A DNA stretch of 64,000 bases, from sequence record OL770310; one strand, 5' to 3'. Position numbers and translations under genes: made by a program. The notes below the pieces were generated by a model. That model had not been told where the DNA came from. It saw only the letters and a program-made list of their open reading frames with translations, and searched no databases. Positions within the stretch are counted from its first letter, which is position 1; the number at the start of each line of letters is the position of its first letter. This document shows positions 3,859-49,807 of this stretch, piece by piece. The DNA is from Escherichia phage PSa2.

Positions 3859-3880
3859 TAGCGGGGAATATTCCCCGCTA
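3859..3880. terminator. perfect 22-bp palindrome TAGCGGGGAATATTCCCCGCTA (hairpin, terminator-like)
   Basis: read directly; lies between two minus-strand ORFs; same arms as hairpin at 7308. Confidence 0.35.
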
Positions 3881-7307: not shown

Positions 7308-7336
7308 AGCGGGGATTATTTCCCCGCTTTACTATT
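7308..7336 (+). terminator. intrinsic terminator hairpin AGCGGGGA-TTATT-TCCCCGCT plus T-rich tail
   Basis: read directly downstream of 6304-7299. Confidence 0.5.
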
Positions 7337-8200: not shown

Positions 8201-8219
8201 AGGGGATATATTATCCCCT
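8201..8219 (+). terminator. hairpin AGGGGATA-TAT-TATCCCCT (weak T tail)
   Basis: palindrome directly after 7966-8193. Confidence 0.3.
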
Positions 8220-17627: not shown

Positions 17628-17730
17628 AATGAAGTTTTAAAATAAAAGGCCTAAGCCTAGGCCCGTAAAGAAAGAGATAAGAACTACTATCCCTATTGCT
17701 ATAAATATCTCACGAGCCATGCCATCAAAA

Positions 17731-18527: not shown

Positions 18528-18826
18528 TAATACCTCTTTTTAGTTAACCAATACATATTGTGCTCATATTGATAGCGATTCCACTTATCTTTAAATTCAT
18601 TCATATGATTAAAGATATGTTTGGCTAAATCGTTAGCATTCTCTAGTGTTTTAGCGTAAAGTTTTACTGGTTCGCCATTTTCATATGAGATAATAATAAA
18701 GAGCCTATTATCTTCTTCAAATGCGGGGGATATAGAACGTATCCCCTTAACATCAATAAAGCCAGCCCAGCCTAGAGACTCAAAGTTACAATACTTAGTA
18801 ATTGTTGGTATAATAGGTTTTTCCAT
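18527..18826 (-). CDS. hypothetical protein
   Basis: 99-aa ORF. Confidence 0.5.
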   Translation of the reverse strand: MEKPIIPTITKYCNFESLGWAGFIDVKGIRSISPAFEEDNRLFIIISYENGEPVKLYAKTLENANDLAKHIFNHMNEFKDKWNRYQYEHNMYWLTKKRY

Positions 18827-45497: not shown

Positions 45498-45550
45498 TAT
45501 TTGCTTCCTTATACGAAGTTTGAGATTTGAATTTGTTTTAAAATGGTCTA

Positions 45551-45733
45551 TTACAGACCGATTGCCAGCAGAGTGCGCAGAACAGTATCAGAACTGTTAT
45601 CAATATTCGTATTAGCGCGATTCAGCACGTTAAAGATTTTCTGGATGCCGGACTGACGCTCAGCCATACGACGCAGACCCAGGTTACGTTTTGCTACTTT
45701 ACCATTTTTACGGACGTTTTTAGATACTGGCAT
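45551..45733 (-). CDS. small basic protein
   Basis: 60-aa ORF. Confidence 0.35.
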   Translation of the reverse strand: MPVSKNVRKNGKVAKRNLGLRRMAERQSGIQKIFNVLNRANTNIDNSSDTVLRTLLAIGL

Positions 45734-45773
45734 AATTATTTTCCTTTTGTTGTTCTCTCAAATTTATGAATAT

Positions 45774-45802
45774 ATTATACAGAATTTTGGAGCTGAAAGC
45801 AA
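45774..45802 (-). promoter_or_regulatory. sigma70 early promoter
   Basis: promoter family motif. Confidence 0.55.
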
Positions 45803-45803
45803 A

Positions 45804-46505
45804 TCAAATTTTGATTTTTTCGATCATGATGGCTACACAATAACTTTCAACTAAAGCATCGAATGCGGGATCATGTTTCACTGGATAGATTCCATAACGA
45901 ATGGTATCCATCTTTTCCATTTTAGCTTTTGCCCAGCTAGCACCTTCGGCTTCTAGATCTTTATAGCTATAACCAGCTTGCATCCACTGATTACGGAAAG
46001 ATCGAACGTTACCTAAGTTCCAGAATTTCCACGGAACTATTTCTTCATGGGTTCCGGCATGGAACGTATTTGCAGAGTAGATTGTCATATCAAACTCTGG
46101 GCCATTGCCGTAATACAGAGCATTATCTCCTAGAGACAATTCCATAATGTTCTGAGCCATAGAGAAGGCAGCATAATTAGAGCCTACGTCATTAGTGCAG
46201 TGATGCTTACCATCACGGAAGGCAATCAGTTTAGGATTACGACCATTTAGAGCCTCCATAATATGGAGCGCAGATGGACTGTTTTTAGCTTGATCCATCC
46301 AGAATGCAATAGTAGAGGCAGTTACCTTAGCACCCGCATTAAGCTGATCTTGAACGTCTAGAGTAACGAATACCAGATCAGGATCTTTATCAATTCCGTG
46401 CATCGCTACAAAAGCGAAAGAAGGCATTGCAATATGAGTAGTACCGCAATTTCCTGGAGTACCTAGAGATTCAATGTCCAGCATACCAAAGGGCTTGAAT
46501 TTCAT
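45804..46505 (-). CDS. hypothetical protein (possible DEDD-type exonuclease)
   Basis: 233-aa ORF; N-terminal MLDIESLG resembles exonuclease motif I. Confidence 0.4.
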   Translation of the reverse strand: MKFKPFGMLDIESLGTPGNCGTTHIAMPSFAFVAMHGIDKDPDLVFVTLDVQDQLNAGAKVTASTIAFWMDQAKNSPSALHIMEALNGRNPKLIAFRDGKHHCTNDVGSNYAAFSMAQNIMELSLGDNALYYGNGPEFDMTIYSANTFHAGTHEEIVPWKFWNLGNVRSFRNQWMQAGYSYKDLEAEGASWAKAKMEKMDTIRYGIYPVKHDPAFDALVESYCVAIMIEKIKI

Positions 46506-46535
46506 AATTATGTCCTTTATTGTTGTAGAAAACTA

Positions 46536-46748
46536 TTAAAGAGCTGTCTCTTTAATAGACTCCCACTGTTTGGGGTCTTTCAGAGGAAGTTCCTCTTCTT
46601 CAAACAGGTCTGTTCCATTTTCACTAACATCCCAGTTTTCTTCCATGATTTCTTCTAGAAGCTCATGTTTAGAAAGACGAGTGTAGTCTCTAGCAGACTT
46701 GTGAGTGCTAGCACGGTTAAAATCATTCTTTGCAACGAAGTTACGCAT
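46536..46748 (-). CDS. hypothetical protein
   Basis: 70-aa ORF. Confidence 0.45.
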   Translation of the reverse strand: MRNFVAKNDFNRASTHKSARDYTRLSKHELLEEIMEENWDVSENGTDLFEEEELPLKDPKQWESIKETAL

Positions 46749-46763
46749 AGTTTCTCCAAATAA

Positions 46764-46781
46764 GAGGGGCTTTCGCCCCCT
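46764..46781 (-). terminator. intercistronic hairpin GAGGGGC-TTTC-GCCCCC
   Basis: same hairpin core as 47043-47058. Confidence 0.4.
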
Positions 46782-46789
46782 GATTTAAA

Positions 46790-47059
46790 TTACTTGCCAA
46801 GCAGTTTAAGGATATTTTCCTTAATAGTTTGAGCAGATTTTTCACTCTTATTGGTTTCAGCCAGTTTCAGAGCGAGTTCTTCCTGCTGTTTCTGAATATC
46901 AGCAGCAGTTTTCTGATCAGCTTCAATACGAGCTTGAAGTTCGTCAGTAATAGTGGTAAAGGAAGCAACGATTTCAGTAACGGAACGTGGTTTCTTAGAG
47001 AACATAAAATATCCTTGATTAGTCAGAGAAAGAGTTAGTATATGGGGCTTTCGCCCCAT
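46790..47059 (-). CDS. coiled-coil small protein
   Basis: track ORF begins at TTG 47062; ATG at 47059. Confidence 0.45.
   Translation of the reverse strand: MGRKPHILTLSLTNQGYFMFSKKPRSVTEIVASFTTITDELQARIEADQKTAADIQKQQEELALKLAETNKSEKSAQTIKENILKLLGK
47043..47058 (-). terminator. intercistronic hairpin TGGGGC-TTTC-GCCCCA
   Basis: overlaps start region of 46790-47059. Confidence 0.35.
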
Positions 47060-47065
47060 CAATCA

Positions 47066-47590
47066 TTACTTCGCTTTACGCTTACGAGCAGGTTTAGCGG
47101 ATTTAGCGGATTTACGATCAGAAGCACCAGTAAACTTAATACCGATACCATAGCACAGAGCGCGAACGTTGTCACGGCTATACTCTACCCCGAAGATATT
47201 CGGTTTAATGGAGCCAAACTGTCCACGGGATTCACGCATTACGTCGGCCATTGGCTTACGCTTCTGATTGACTGCTTTTTCGTAGTCTTTCAGAGCCATA
47301 CCGTTGCGGGCGAACATCTCAGCACCGCCGTTAAAGCTCAGAGTTACCGGTACAGACTTATGACCTTCACCCTTGATGAACACAACCTGCTTAGCAGTTG
47401 CGCGAGTAGAGTTCTTGGCCTTCGGCTTCTGGCGAACCGGAGCCGCAGACTTCAGGGCAGTCTGAGCCTGAGCATCAGTAGGATGCTTACGCAGATGACG
47501 TTCCAGACGAGCCTTACGATTGGCTTCGGTCTGAGCGAAAGTTTTAACTGCCGGAGCTGCCTGAGTTTTTGCGTTTTTCTGCTTAGCCAT
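47066..47590 (-). CDS. basic Lys/Ala-rich protein (possible nucleic-acid-binding)
   Basis: 174-aa ORF. Confidence 0.5.
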   Translation of the reverse strand: MAKQKNAKTQAAPAVKTFAQTEANRKARLERHLRKHPTDAQAQTALKSAAPVRQKPKAKNSTRATAKQVVFIKGEGHKSVPVTLSFNGGAEMFARNGMALKDYEKAVNQKRKPMADVMRESRGQFGSIKPNIFGVEYSRDNVRALCYGIGIKFTGASDRKSAKSAKPARKRKAK

Positions 47591-47628
47591 TATTTGTTTT
47601 CCTTTTTGTTGATCAATTTATGAGATAT

Positions 47629-47657
47629 ATTATACGAAATTTTGAAGCGTTTAGCAA
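47629..47657 (-). promoter_or_regulatory. sigma70 early promoter
   Basis: promoter family motif. Confidence 0.55.
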
Positions 47658-47673
47658 ATGAATTTTTTAAAAA

Positions 47674-47952
47674 TTATCTGCCGATCATCTTAGCTTGTTC
47701 CTCACTGAAAACGTACTGATAACCACCCTTGTTATATGCAGGAGCAGTACACAGTTTCTTGCGCTCAATTTCTTCTTGAGCTTTGCGTTCCCTTTCGGCT
47801 AATTCTTCATCTAGGTAAACTAGACGTTGCTCCGGAGGTGGTGGAAGCCTAGTTTCTGGCTCACCAATATTTGCCTTTCTGATCTGACGCGGAGATTGTG
47901 CGCGTTTTCTCAAAGGTTTAAATCCTAATGAATTTGAGTTGTAAATTCGCAT
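47674..47952 (-). CDS. hypothetical protein
   Basis: 92-aa ORF. Confidence 0.45.
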   Translation of the reverse strand: MRIYNSNSLGFKPLRKRAQSPRQIRKANIGEPETRLPPPPEQRLVYLDEELAERERKAQEEIERKKLCTAPAYNKGGYQYVFSEEQAKMIGR

Positions 47953-47978
47953 AAAGCCCTCCTCACTTTCAATACGAA

Positions 47979-48008
47979 TATTATACTAAATTCGAGGGCT
48001 TTAAGCAA
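47979..48008 (-). promoter_or_regulatory. sigma70 early promoter
   Basis: promoter family motif. Confidence 0.5.
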
Positions 48009-48028
48009 GTGAATTTTTAAATTATTTA

Positions 48029-48517
48029 TTACATCTCAGCAAGTTCTTGCTCAGTAATTACAGTATTGCATAGAGCATCAACTTCTTCATTACCACGAAT
48101 ACCTGAGTGACCTTTAACCTTAACAAAGGTTGGATTGGTATCATGGAAGTTAATATACTGTTGAGTTAGTTTAAATGCTTCTTGCCAGAGTTCTAGATTA
48201 AGAGGAGTTTCACCATCTCCCTTCTTCCAGCCTTTCTTCTGCCAAGACCACATCCAGCTTTCCATACCATTTTTGCAGTAAGCAGAATCAGTATAGATAA
48301 TTACTGGACGATTATCTTTCTTAGTAGACCAACGAAGAACTTCTACAATTGCAGTGAGTTCCATTTCGTTATTAGTAGTTTTAGGACTGAAGCCGGATTT
48401 AGATCCGATACGATCATCATTATCATTATAGACAACGAATCCCCATGCACCTAACCCAGGATTGCCTTTACATGCACCATCTGTATATATGTGGAAAACT
48501 GACATTATTTGCTCCAA
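48029..48517 (-). CDS. rnhA: ribonuclease HI
   Basis: 162-aa ORF; TDGACKGNPG, NNEMEL, TDS pattern collinear with E. coli RNase HI. Confidence 0.75.
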   Translation of the reverse strand: MEQIMSVFHIYTDGACKGNPGLGAWGFVVYNDNDDRIGSKSGFSPKTTNNEMELTAIVEVLRWSTKKDNRPVIIYTDSAYCKNGMESWMWSWQKKGWKKGDGETPLNLELWQEAFKLTQQYINFHDTNPTFVKVKGHSGIRGNEEVDALCNTVITEQELAEM

Positions 48518-48776: not shown

Positions 48777-49355
48777 TTATTCTCCAATTACTAAAACATC
48801 ATGTTGGGAAGATACACCACACATATAATCTGCACAATGCGTAAAAGCCAGATCAATGATTTCAAATATATCATCTACATCTAAATCTGTGGCTCGACAA
48901 TCCGCAATAGCTAAACCTGTACGAATACTGGAAAGTACATCTTCTCCTCCACAGCCTACACCGGCATATTCAACTTCTAGAATAGAAGCATTAGATTGGA
49001 AAATAAAGATTCTTCCTTTGTAGAGCATAATAAATTGTCCCAGATTAGGTTCAGCATATTTTTCATTTTTCTTTTCGCCAAAGTCTTTCTGGTTAAACAT
49101 ATCACGTAATTTAGGTACTATTTCCGTATATAAATATTTATCATCGGAAATATCTGCTAAACGTGGTGGTACAGTAAAGCTATGCTCTAGTAATTGTCCC
49201 ATGTAGAAGGAACTAGTGTATCCGAAGTACAAATCATCAGAGATTTTGAATACTTTCGGATTTTTAACCAGCAGTTTCGTATAGCCATTAGAACCCATAC
49301 GATCACCAGCTAAGTATACTTTATCTTTATATTTAAATGCTACTATGGCTGTCAT
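48777..49355 (-). CDS. hypothetical protein, possible Ntn-hydrolase (HslV/proteasome beta-like) fold
   Basis: 192-aa ORF; N-terminus MTAIVAFKYKDKVYLAGDR resembles HslV start. Confidence 0.35.
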   Translation of the reverse strand: MTAIVAFKYKDKVYLAGDRMGSNGYTKLLVKNPKVFKISDDLYFGYTSSFYMGQLLEHSFTVPPRLADISDDKYLYTEIVPKLRDMFNQKDFGEKKNEKYAEPNLGQFIMLYKGRIFIFQSNASILEVEYAGVGCGGEDVLSSIRTGLAIADCRATDLDVDDIFEIIDLAFTHCADYMCGVSSQHDVLVIGE

Positions 49356-49415: not shown

Positions 49416-49431
49416 TGAAATTTAAATATAA

Positions 49432-49449
49432 TAGCCCCGAAGGGCTATT
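49432..49449 (-). terminator. hairpin ATAGCCCC-GAA-GGGGCTAT with U-rich tail
   Basis: read directly downstream of 49454-49807. Confidence 0.5.
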
Positions 49450-49453
49450 TGAA

Positions 49454-49807
49454 TTAGATTATAATCAAGATTATTAGAGCGTATGTCAGATAATGCAGTA
49501 ACTGATCAAATCCTAAAGCTATCCAAAACTTAGCATCGCTTATAGCGTATTTACAGCGTTGTGCTTTCCAATAATCTATAATAAAGTGTAGAATTAATTC
49601 CATAATAGCTAAAGCTATAGACATTCCTGGTGATGTGAATAGGATTAGAATTGCAAATGTTAATCCAGCATGTACTAGCGAATGGGTTAATAATGGAAGT
49701 TTCCACCCTATTTTATGCGTCTTTCTTAGCATATATGGTGTTTGGAGTGGATAATCGGCCATAAAATGTTTTAGAAAGAATATGACAAATAATAGTATAA
49801 TTAACAT
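49454..49807 (-). CDS. membrane protein
   Basis: 117-aa ORF, multiple hydrophobic segments. Confidence 0.45.
   Translation of the reverse strand: MLIILLFVIFFLKHFMADYPLQTPYMLRKTHKIGWKLPLLTHSLVHAGLTFAILILFTSPGMSIALAIMELILHFIIDYWKAQRCKYAISDAKFWIALGFDQLLHYLTYALIILIII

What the first reader, a model, noticed from the sequence alone, without database searches (positions are those of the whole stretch)
46764..47058. Repeated intercistronic hairpin GGGGCTTTCGCCCC within one operon
Nearly identical hairpins sit in two consecutive gene junctions of the 47590-46536 transcription unit (46764-46781 and 47043-47058), the second overlapping the start region of the downstream gene. This could mean RNA processing, attenuation or translational control rather than simple termination.
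Basis: seen in the sequence. Interest (0 to 1): 0.35.

Follow-up and report, generated by a model that had tools for sequence, protein, structure and literature searches.

The report
Duplicated terminator hairpin bracketing accessory gene
Two identical 14-base hairpins in an early operon of a T5-like phage are real, and they bracket a small optional gene that is absent from phage T5 itself, where a single hairpin remains; one copy looks like a leaky terminator, which is a fairly ordinary feature with a modest evolutionary twist.

Summary
The window is a T5-like phage (Epseptimavirus, about 99% identical to BD13/Eps7). On the transcribed (-) strand, GGGGC-GAAA-GCCCC occurs exactly twice, after gene 1 (the T5.089 homolog) and after gene 2. 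The claim that a hairpin overlaps the next gene's start is wrong. Gene 2 starts at ATG 47005, 39 nt past the hairpin.

In 65 hairpin copies from relatives the stem never changes. The loop varies and includes exact loop inversions.

HP2 has a U-rich tail and matches the single hairpin between T5.089 and T5.088 in T5, so it is probably a leaky intrinsic terminator. Genes 2-4 have no promoter of their own. HP1 never has a U-tail.

The main result is that the two copies bracket a 71-aa accessory gene. About 15% of relatives, including T5, lack this gene. Their single hairpin has HP1's upstream flank and HP2's downstream flank. Gene 2 also shows 2-3 times lower synonymous divergence between genera than its neighbours do.

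This is the topology described for PeSL-mediated gene shuffling in T4-type phages, but without the promoter part. Function was not tested experimentally. Interest is modest.

The parts
47629..47657 (-). Strong sigma-70 promoter (TTGCTA-17-TATAAT). It is the counterpart of T5 promoter P-H207 and drives the operon.
   Evidence: 10 of 12 consensus matches. One search shows that T5 annotates promoter P-H207 directly upstream of T5.089. (H85) matches this stretch to a T5 promoter feature.
47066..47590 (-). Gene 1, 174 aa. A basic protein of family DUF7022 and the homolog of T5.089.
47042..47059 (-). HP1: AU-GGGGC-GAAA-GCCCC-AU, a 7-bp stem (core 47057..47044). It begins 6-8 nt after gene 1's stop codon. 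It has no U-tract.
   Evidence: The stem is invariant in 27 J1 copies. There are five loop variants among the 25 J1 copies tabulated.
47012..47016 (-). Shine-Dalgarno sequence AAGGA of gene 2.
   Evidence: Read from the sequence. A ribosome-binding site is annotated at the same place in Seafire and Stitch.
46790..47005 (-). Gene 2, 71 aa, a coiled-coil-like accessory gene (phrog_2380). It is absent from T5 and from about 15% of relatives.
46765..46780 (-). HP2: G-GGGGC-GAAA-GCCCC-U (core 46779..46766). It matches the single hairpin between T5.089 and T5.088 in T5.
46756..46764 (-). U-rich tail of HP2 (CUUAUUUGG). It runs into gene 3's Shine-Dalgarno sequence GGAG (46757..46754).
   Evidence: One search lists it as terminator-like. 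One search finds 5-7 T in the first 10 nt in all J2 and single-site copies. Searches show the upstream A-tract pairing with it.
46536..46748 (-). Gene 3, 70 aa. Family DUF7230 and the homolog of T5.088.
46525..46566 (-). HP3: a third junction stem-loop with an 11-bp inner stem and a 7-bp outer stem that contains three G-U pairs. It spans gene 3's stop codon and is followed by or includes UUUUCU. It is not a copy of HP1/HP2.
   Evidence: inner stem 46558..46533. (-19.5 kcal/mol in all relatives). (18 pairs, 2 compensatory changes, none broken). (junction identity 0.93, versus 0.45-0.6 for the body of gene 3).
45804..46505 (-). Gene 4, 233 aa. It has an Rv2179c-like 3'-5' exo(ribo)nuclease domain, is the homolog of T5.087, and is the last gene that depends on read-through.

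Best explanation
The two hairpins are two copies of one terminator-type stem-loop. HP2 together with its U-rich tail corresponds to the single intrinsic terminator/attenuator that follows the highly expressed gene T5.089 in phage T5. It must be leaky, because genes 3 and 4 have no promoter of their own.

HP1 is a second copy of the same stem-loop, separated from the U-tail by a cassette of about 278 nt made of a spacer, a ribosome-binding site and gene 2. The pair is therefore the direct-repeat footprint of a gain or loss of the gene 2 cassette by a crossover or template switch inside or next to the hairpin. This resembles the promoter/stem-loop (PeSL) shuffling described in T4-type phages.

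As RNA, HP2 probably sets a step-down in transcription after genes 1 and 2. HP1 has no U-tract but is still under purifying selection, so it most likely acts as a pause site or as a barrier to 3'-exonucleases and RNA processing.

Shown here: the hairpins, their conservation, the presence or absence of the U-tail, the exact indel boundaries, and the unusually low divergence of gene 2. Inferred: partial termination, RNA stabilisation, and the recombination mechanism and its direction.
For: 1. Window uniqueness and stability.

2. Conservation: in 65 copies from 38 loci the 10 stem bases never change, while the flanks diverge. Loops vary (GAAA, GAGA, GTAA, AGAA, TTCT, TTTC, TTTA). They include exact inversions (GAAA/TTTC and AGAA/TTCT) that keep the palindrome. 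These loop variants change the predicted free energy by 1.3 kcal/mol or less.

3. Outer pairs: HP1's outer two pairs are AU/AU in most Epseptimavirus loci, including this window. They are UA/UA in Tequintavirus and also in the Epseptimavirus UTK0009, so the stem is almost always 7 bp.

4. U-tails: J2 and single-site copies have 5-7 T in the 10 nt after the stem and an upstream A-tract that pairs with it. J1 copies have 2-4 T. Relatives' records annotate the hairpins as predicted terminators.

5. Read-through requirement: there is no promoter-like site between HP1 and the end of gene 4, and T5 annotates none either.

6. Stop-codon distance: both hairpins start 6-10 nt after a stop codon. At that distance a terminating ribosome strongly represses a terminator (PMC4824070).

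7. Empty-site junction: in T5, VAH1, NR01 and others (11 loci) gene 2 is absent and one hairpin remains, with J1's upstream flank and J2's loop and downstream flank. L033's single site is identical to L017's J2 in loop (TTTC) and tail.

8. Frequency: in GenBank about 372 of about 439 related records carry gene 2, always as a single copy.

9. Divergence: gene 2 is 92-94% identical in nucleotides between genera, against about 77% for gene 1 and about 70% for gene 3. Median dS is 0.38 for gene 2, against 0.88-1.12 for the neighbours. In 15 comparisons, at most 2 of 55 equal-sized neighbour windows were as low as gene 2. The high-identity tract begins abruptly about 25 nt 3' of HP1.

10. Outgroup: Klebsiella phage Sealy has neither the hairpin nor gene 2.

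11. Precedent: the PeSL papers describe the same topology and Gn-loop-Cn stems. In one case the crossover was mapped within the loop.
Against: There are no transcript-end, reporter or recombination data for this locus, and none were found in the literature. Termination, leakiness and stabilisation are inferred from sequence alone.

The stem shows no covariation because it never varies. The compensating outer A-U pairs could be chance in AT-rich flanks.

The scattered distribution of gene-2-minus genomes on the flanking-gene trees can be produced by ordinary homologous recombination in the flanking genes, so it does not prove repeated hairpin-mediated events.

The right-hand end of the high-identity tract lies about 55 nt inside gene 3, not at HP2.

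A 14-nt repeat is very short for homologous recombination.

The neighbouring orfX insertion is not bounded by a hairpin on its left side.

Gene 2's low dS rests on only about 47 synonymous sites.
Confidence: 0.6

Rival explanations
1. These are two independent, ordinary intrinsic terminators. They happen to share the same optimal G4C-GNRA-GC4 hairpin through convergent selection for a short, very stable stem. There is no link to gene gain or loss.
For: The 14-mer is a common generic hairpin in viral contigs; the scan found more than 120 stretches before it was capped. The window holds many other GC-rich junction hairpins. Both copies are annotated as predicted terminators in EASG3.
Against: HP1 has no U-tract in any of its copies. 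The exact 14-mer occurs only at these two adjacent junctions in 64 kb. The gene-2-minus junction is exactly a chimera of HP1's left flank and HP2's right flank. Gene 2 has a different divergence history from its neighbours.
Confidence: 0.15
2. The hairpins are post-transcriptional control elements: they mask or couple translation initiation of the downstream genes, or they are specific RNase processing sites, rather than transcription signals.
For: HP2's outer A-U/G-U helix reaches the first G's of gene 3's Shine-Dalgarno sequence in most junction types. Both hairpins lie within a ribosome footprint of the upstream stop codon, so upstream translation would open them. AU-rich single-stranded flanks next to a stem are typical surroundings for RNase E; this point rests on general knowledge and was not tested.
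Against: HP1 ends 25 nt before gene 2's Shine-Dalgarno sequence and 39 nt before its ATG, and the claimed overlap with the start is an ORF-calling artefact. The HP2 core leaves the Shine-Dalgarno sequence free, and the outer helix is weak and differs between junction types. The stems are only 5-7 bp, which is too short for RNase III. The loops vary freely, which argues against a loop-specific RNA-binding factor. No Rfam family matches.
Confidence: 0.15
3. The invariant G4C/GC4 palindrome is a DNA-level recognition site. It could be a target for a nuclease, nickase, homing or site-specific recombination activity, or a protein-binding site, and this activity directs cassette insertion.
For: The stem is absolutely invariant in 65 copies although the flanks and loops change. 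Loop inversions point to DNA-level palindrome dynamics. T5-like genomes carry many HNH endonucleases.
Against: There is no recombinase or endonuclease gene in or beside the cassette. The strand-specific features are the U-tail, a mostly GNRA loop on the sense strand at J2 and the single sites (34 of 36), and a G-U closing pair. These fit an RNA role. The 14-mer occurs only twice in this window, so it is not a dispersed recognition site within it.
Confidence: 0.05

Closest known systems
PeSL (promoter-early stem-loop) cassettes that mediate modular shuffling in T4-type phages (Arbiol et al. 2010, PMC2839356; Comeau et al. 2014, PMC4122927)
   Same: A small ORFan is flanked by two copies of a conserved intergenic regulatory motif in one phage, and a single chimeric motif sits at the empty site in a close relative. 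The stem-loops are of the Gn-loop-Cn type and act as terminators or attenuators. In one case the crossover was mapped within the loop.
   Different: No sigma-70 promoter is attached to either hairpin. The shared sequence is about 14-16 nt rather than about 100 bp. Only two copies exist in the 64-kb window, not a dispersed family. The host family is Demerecviridae (siphoviruses), not Straboviridae. Mini-circles were not tested.
Rho-independent (intrinsic) terminators acting as intra-operon attenuators
   Same: HP2 has a GC-rich stem, a tetraloop, a U-rich tail and an upstream A-tract just after a stop codon. Downstream genes depend on read-through. Closeness to the stop codon is known to weaken termination (PMC4824070).
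   Different: HP1 lacks the U-tract. The tail of HP2 is interrupted (CUUAUUUGG) and merges with the next gene's Shine-Dalgarno sequence. No termination measurement exists.
Extra-stable tetraloop hairpins (C(UUCG)G and GNRA types) in phage intercistronic regions, and intercistronic stem-loops that protect upstream mRNA segments from 3' exonucleases (recalled from general knowledge, e.g. T4 intercistronic hairpins; not checked in the library)
   Same: It is a short GC stem closed by C-G around a GAAA loop, placed between cistrons of a phage early operon. A UUCG-looped hairpin sits in a nearby junction (49449..49430).
   Different: The loop is not conserved in relatives, and non-GNRA loops and inverted loops are tolerated, so the special tetraloop is not required. 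Stabilisation was not tested.
Morons, meaning accessory genes inserted between conserved phage genes together with their own transcription signals
   Same: A small optional gene is inserted between two conserved genes and is associated with a terminator-type hairpin.
   Different: Gene 2 has no promoter of its own and relies on the upstream operon promoter. The insertion is bounded by a duplicated hairpin.

Membership tests
Intrinsic (Rho-independent) terminator | A GC-rich stem-loop immediately downstream of a coding region | tested here: met
   HP1 is -13.8 kcal/mol and starts 6-8 nt after gene 1's stop codon. HP2 is -12.3 kcal/mol (-19.4 in context) and starts 9-10 nt after gene 2's stop codon.
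Intrinsic (Rho-independent) terminator | A U-rich tract directly following the stem | tested here: inconclusive
   HP2 and all single-site copies meet it, with 5-7 T in the first 10 nt. HP1 does not, with 2-4 T in all 25 copies tabulated. HP2 therefore qualifies and HP1 does not.
Intrinsic (Rho-independent) terminator | Measured release of transcripts at the site | not testable with these tools
   No Term-seq or 3'-end data for T5-like phages were found.
PeSL (promoter-early stem-loop) cassette | A stable Gn-loop-Cn stem-loop in an intergenic position | tested here: met
   G4C-loop-GC4. The PeSL stem type is described in PMC4122927.
PeSL (promoter-early stem-loop) cassette | A strong sigma-70-like early promoter joined to the stem-loop | tested here: not met
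   No promoter-like hexamer pair lies in either junction. The nearest ones are at 47657..47629 upstream and 45850..45823 downstream.
PeSL (promoter-early stem-loop) cassette | Two motif copies flank an ORFan that is absent in close relatives, and the empty site keeps a single chimeric motif | tested here: met
   Gene 2 is flanked by HP1 and HP2. Eleven loci, including T5, have one hairpin with HP1's left flank and HP2's right flank.
PeSL (promoter-early stem-loop) cassette | Many dispersed copies concentrated in hyperplastic regions | tested here: not met
   There are only two copies of this hairpin in 64 kb. Other junction hairpins have unrelated stems.
PeSL (promoter-early stem-loop) cassette | Formation of excised mini-circles by recombination between motif copies | not testable with these tools
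   This needs inverse PCR on infected cells or virions, as in PMC2839356.
Any curated RNA family (Rfam 15) | A covariance-model match at or near the gathering score | tested here: not met
   Only two chance-level matches (a miRNA and a snoRNA model) were found in 45500-48200, and neither is at the hairpins.
GNRA-tetraloop structural motif | Conserved G-N-R-A loop on the RNA strand | tested here: inconclusive
   The window has GAAA at both sites. J2 and single-site copies have GNRA loops in 34 of 36 cases. J1 copies have GNRA loops in only 16 of 25 cases, the rest being AGAA, UUCU and UUUA. Loop identity changes the predicted free energy by 1.3 kcal/mol or less.

The most novel reading that the evidence does not exclude
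The invariant G4C/GC4 stem-loop is a promoter-less counterpart of the T4-type PeSL in Demerecviridae. It would be a minimal 14-16-nt 'linker' at which small accessory genes are gained, lost and exchanged between Tequintavirus and Epseptimavirus, by a hairpin-mediated template switch or by mini-circle excision and integration. The same device may operate widely in unrelated phages. One unrelated AT-rich viral contig, L112, shows two identical GGGGGC-GAAA-GCCCCC hairpins bracketing a single small ORF.
Probability: 0.3. Interest if true: 0.5.

Novelty: new variant of a known kind. Interest (0 to 1): 0.3.

Why it matters
If the recombination reading holds, very short terminator-type hairpins, and not only the roughly 100-bp promoter-terminator composites of T4-type phages, can act as safe docking points for accessory genes in virulent phages. 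A new gene would be placed inside a strongly expressed operon, between the hairpin and its U-tail, without disturbing its neighbours. That would help explain the fine-scale mosaicism of T5-like genomes and would suggest convenient insertion sites for engineering them.

On the expression side, the operon (gene 1 | HP1 | gene 2 | HP2 | gene 3 | HP3 | gene 4) is a compact natural example of graded, translation-sensitive attenuation behind one of the strongest known E. coli promoters (P-H207 type).

None of this overturns current understanding.

Tried and rejected
- **Start-codon overlap.** The TTG-extended ORF is open only in this window.
- **Rfam.** The search across 45500-48200 found nothing relevant.
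- **Literature.** Searches for the exact 14-mer gave 0 papers. Searches for T5 terminator or transcript maps found no 3'-end data. The CRISPRi-ART T5 paper does not mention T5.087-T5.089 in its main text.
- **Extra matching places.** The 2-3 matching places per record are copies of the T5-type promoter block, not paralogs of the cassette.
- **Providencia and Vibrio hits.** They match only the promoter, so they were dropped.
- **Stem covariation.** This could not be assessed because the stem never varies. MAFFT reads the outer-pair change in HP1 as a 1-nt shift on each side rather than as substitutions, so I treat it only as weak support.
- **Flanking-gene trees.** The scattered position of gene-2-minus genomes was considered as evidence for recurrent hairpin-mediated events. 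It was rejected because ordinary recombination in the flanks gives the same pattern.
- **Second same-stem pair.** I asked whether the hairpins at 3859 and 7308 bound another cassette. That region (pre-early A1/A2) is too mosaic and differently oriented, so it was not pursued.

Full report
**Source and gene layout.** The window is a T5-like phage of the Demerecviridae, genus Epseptimavirus. The 2.2 kb around the finding is 98.9% identical to Salmonella phage BD13 and 98.7% identical to Eps7, and it matches 442 phage records. All genes here lie on the - strand. The order is as follows.

| Element | Window coordinates (- strand) | Notes |
|---|---|---|
| Promoter | 47657..47629 | TTGCTA-17-TATAAT |
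| Gene 1 | 47590..47066 | 174 aa |
| HP1 | core 47057..47044 | first hairpin |
| Gene 2 | 47005..46790 | 71 aa |
| HP2 | core 46779..46766 | second hairpin |
| Gene 3 | 46748..46536 | 70 aa |
| Gene 4 | 46505..45804 | 233 aa |

In T5 itself the homologs are T5.089, T5.088 and T5.087. T5.089 sits behind the annotated classic promoter P-H207. T5 has no counterpart of gene 2. Pfam assigns gene 1 to DUF7022 and gene 3 to DUF7230. Gene 4 has an Rv2179c-like 3'-5' exoribonuclease domain. Gene 2 matches only phrog_2380, whose function is unknown.

**Check of the observation.**
- On the transcribed strand both sites read GGGGC-GAAA-GCCCC. The 14-mer occurs exactly twice in 64 kb, even when two mismatches are allowed. 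Chance expectation is 0.14.
- HP1 extends to a 7-bp stem (AUGGGGC/GCCCCAU) at -13.8 kcal/mol, z = -3.9.
- The HP2 core is -12.3 kcal/mol. It reaches -19.4 in context because the A-rich stretch upstream pairs with the U-rich stretch downstream.
- The statement that the 47043-47058 hairpin overlaps the start of the next gene is wrong. It depends on a TTG start at 47062, and that extension is open only in this window. Every one of the 24 other gene-2-carrying loci has in-frame stops there.
- The true start is ATG 47005, preceded by AAGGA, which is 39 nt past the hairpin. Curated records annotate the same ribosome-binding site and start.

**Comparative anatomy.** I collected 38 loci from GenBank and IMG/VR. 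They cover Epseptimavirus and Tequintavirus, including T5, and contain some duplicate genomes.
- In all 65 hairpin copies the ten stem bases are unchanged, although the immediate flanks diverge strongly.
- The loop varies. At J1 the 25 tabulated copies are GAAA (14), TTCT (5), AGAA (3), GAGA (2) and TTTA (1). At J2 they are GAAA (23), GTAA (1) and TTTC (1). At single sites they are GAAA (10) and TTTC (1).
- GAAA/TTTC and AGAA/TTCT are exact reverse complements. These are loop inversions of a perfect palindrome.
- All loop variants stay within 1.3 kcal/mol of each other, so the special GNRA loop is not essential.
- HP1's two outer pairs are AU/AU in most Epseptimavirus loci, including the window. 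They are UA/UA in Tequintavirus and also in the Epseptimavirus UTK0009, whose flanks are different again. The 7-bp stem is therefore almost always kept. This is weak covariation at best.
- A clear asymmetry separates the two sites. J2 and all single-site copies have 5-7 T in the ten bases after the stem. J1 copies have only 2-4 T.
- HP2 therefore has the full look of an intrinsic terminator: A-tract, GC stem, tetraloop and U-tail. HP1 does not.
- Two GenBank records annotate these hairpins as predicted terminators, at -10.5 and -14.1 kcal/mol in EASG3 and -18.8 in VAH1.

**Why there are two identical copies.**
- In T5, VAH1, NR01 and others (11 loci, 9 distinct genomes) gene 2 is missing and a single hairpin sits between the T5.089 and T5.088 homologs.
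- The upstream flank of that single hairpin (…aagtaatagataaata) is the flank of J1 in gene-2-carrying Tequintaviruses. Its loop and downstream flank (tcttatttggagaaactatg, or tcatattttgg…) are those of J2.
- L033's single site even shares the rare TTTC loop and tail of L017's J2.
- The indel is therefore a unit of about 278 nt, made of one hairpin plus spacer, ribosome-binding site and gene 2, and it is bounded exactly by the direct repeat.
- Across GenBank, gene 1 is found at 60% identity or more in about 439 records. Gene 2 is found at 80% or more in about 372 of them, always once. About 15% are therefore empty-site genomes.
- A more distant demerecvirus, Klebsiella phage Sealy, has neither the hairpin nor gene 2. 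Its gene 1 homolog abuts a fused gene 3-gene 4. This favours gain of the cassette within the T5/Eps7 lineage, although later losses cannot be excluded.

**Gene 2 has its own history.** The figures below compare the window with Tequintaviruses.

| Measure | Gene 1 | Gene 2 | Gene 3 | Gene 4 |
|---|---|---|---|---|
| Nucleotide identity | about 77% | 92-94% | about 70% | about 85% |
| Median Nei-Gojobori dS | 1.12 | 0.38 | 0.96 | 0.88 |

- In 15 inter-genus comparisons, at most 2 of 55 equal-sized neighbour windows had synonymous divergence as low as gene 2.
- The high-identity tract starts abruptly about 25 nt 3' of HP1. The 30-nt bin right after HP1 is the most diverged of the junction bins at 0.64, and the next bin is 1.00. 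The tract runs through gene 2 and HP2 into the first 55 nt or so of gene 3.
- This pattern fits more recent exchange of the cassette between genera. However, it rests on only about 47 synonymous sites, and its right edge is not at HP2.
- Gene-2-minus genomes are scattered among gene-2-plus ones on trees of both flanking genes, and those two trees disagree with each other. This shows recombination across the junction. It does not prove repeated hairpin-mediated events.
- A further optional ORF, orfX (86 aa, phrog_28965, found in 49 records), sits between gene 2 and HP2 in Stitch-type phages. No extra hairpin is present there. This junction therefore accumulates accessory ORFs just upstream of the terminator.

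**How it probably works.**
- No promoter-like site lies between HP1 and the 3' end of gene 4. T5's annotation has none between P-H207 and T5.086.
- Genes 2-4, including a conserved exonuclease-domain gene, must therefore be transcribed through both hairpins. HP2 can only be a partial terminator.
- Both hairpins begin 6-10 nt after a stop codon. In vivo work on the tR2 terminator showed that a terminator a few bp after a stop codon is almost completely repressed by the terminating ribosome, and that its efficiency rises with distance (PMC4824070).
- My inference is that HP2 is a translation-sensitive attenuator that sets a step-down after the highly expressed gene 1, and after gene 2 where it is present.
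- HP1 was separated from the U-tail by the cassette, yet it has kept its stem under purifying selection. It most likely acts as an RNA 3'-end or processing barrier, or as a pause site.
- HP2's weak outer helix reaches the first G's of gene 3's Shine-Dalgarno sequence in most junction types. The pairs are A-U and G-U, so any translational masking would be slight.

**A third structure in the same operon.** A stem-loop at 46566..46525 spans gene 3's stop codon. It has an 11-bp inner stem and a 7-bp outer stem with three G-U pairs, which makes it specific to the RNA of this strand. Its energy is -19.5 kcal/mol. It is present in all relatives. Two compensatory pair changes occur in L015, and no pair is broken. 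Every junction of the operon therefore carries a hairpin, which fits graded expression along the operon.

**Comparison with what is known.**
- The nearest described system is the PeSL of T4-type phages. In RB49 an ORFan is flanked by two PeSLs, and phi1 has a single PeSL at the empty site. The stem-loops are of the Gn-loop-Cn type and terminate transcription. One crossover was mapped inside the loop, and mini-circles were detected (PMC2839356; PMC4122927).
- The topology and stem type match here. The defining promoter part is absent. The motif is not a dispersed family in this window, because it has only two copies. This is therefore not a PeSL in the strict sense but works like a stripped-down version of one.
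- As a transcription signal, HP2 meets the sequence criteria of an intrinsic terminator, and HP1 fails the U-tract criterion.
- No Rfam family matches. No paper in the library contains the 14-mer.
- The 14-mer is common in viral contigs generally. One unrelated AT-rich contig, L112, shows two identical GGGGGC-GAAA-GCCCCC hairpins 274 nt apart that bracket one small ORF, each just upstream of the next Shine-Dalgarno sequence. This hints that the arrangement is not confined to T5-like phages.

**Verdict.** The hairpins are real, non-random and conserved. The attenuation idea is plausible for HP2 but untested. The best-supported new point is that the repeat marks the boundaries of an optional gene cassette that is absent from T5 itself. 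This is a variant of a known kind, of modest interest.

Noticed in passing
window 46525-46566 (- strand): A third junction stem-loop spans gene 3's stop codon. It has an 11-bp inner stem and a 7-bp outer stem with three G-U pairs, at -19.5 kcal/mol, followed by or including UUUUCU. It is conserved in all relatives, with two compensatory pair changes in L015. It may be a translation-dependent attenuator ahead of the exonuclease-domain gene.
   Followed up: partly
window 49430-49449 (- strand): A UUCG-tetraloop hairpin (AAUAGCCC-UUCG-GGGCUAUU, -12.2 kcal/mol) lies in the junction between ORF 49807..49454 and ORF 49355..48777 of the same transcription direction.
   Followed up: partly
window 3859-3880 and 7308-7328; also 8201-8219 and 18726-18746: Two further pairs of junction hairpins share identical stems (AGCGGGGA/TCCCCGCT and GGGGATA/TATCCCC). 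The first pair lies in the highly mosaic pre-early A1/A2 region. Whether they bound indels was not examined.
   Followed up: no
window 47590-47677 and at least 10 other - strand sites (e.g. 42962, 45812, 17133, 17642, 27613, 38424, 43644, 34364, 48025): The P-H207-type promoter block is repeated many times at 73-87% identity. At 17663..17648 a hairpin sits directly upstream of one copy, forming a terminator-plus-promoter composite that resembles a true PeSL.
   Followed up: no
L112 11902-12189 (IMG/VR contig 3300017735_000250, - strand): An unrelated AT-rich viral contig has two identical GGGGGC-GAAA-GCCCCC hairpins 274 nt apart that bracket one small ORF. Each hairpin sits just before the next gene's Shine-Dalgarno sequence, and neither has a U-tract.
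   Followed up: partly
L008 2586-4000 (Klebsiella phage Sealy): In this more distant demerecvirus the gene 3 and gene 4 homologs form one 334-aa ORF that overlaps the end of the gene 1 homolog. There is no hairpin and no gene 2.
   Followed up: no
window 46790-47005 and 45804-46505: Many GenBank relatives label gene 2, a 71-aa coiled-coil-like protein, as 'tail length tape-measure protein'. They label gene 4 as 'metallopeptidase' or 'exonuclease'. Pfam supports only an Rv2179c-like 3'-5' exoribonuclease domain for gene 4. The tape-measure and metallopeptidase labels look like propagated mis-annotations.
   Followed up: partly
L039 1117-1413 (Citrobacter phage Ci1, Straboviridae): A distant homolog of gene 2 (about 40% identity) lies two genes upstream of the anti-sigma factor gene (asiA-type) of a T4-like phage. 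Eight records show matches of this kind.
   Followed up: no
window 47066-47075 vs 46790-46799: Gene 1 and gene 2 end in the same way (…AAG TAA T), 8-10 nt before the hairpin in each case. The repeat may once have extended beyond the 14-mer. In many Tequintaviruses gene 2 ends in AAG TGA T instead.
   Followed up: no
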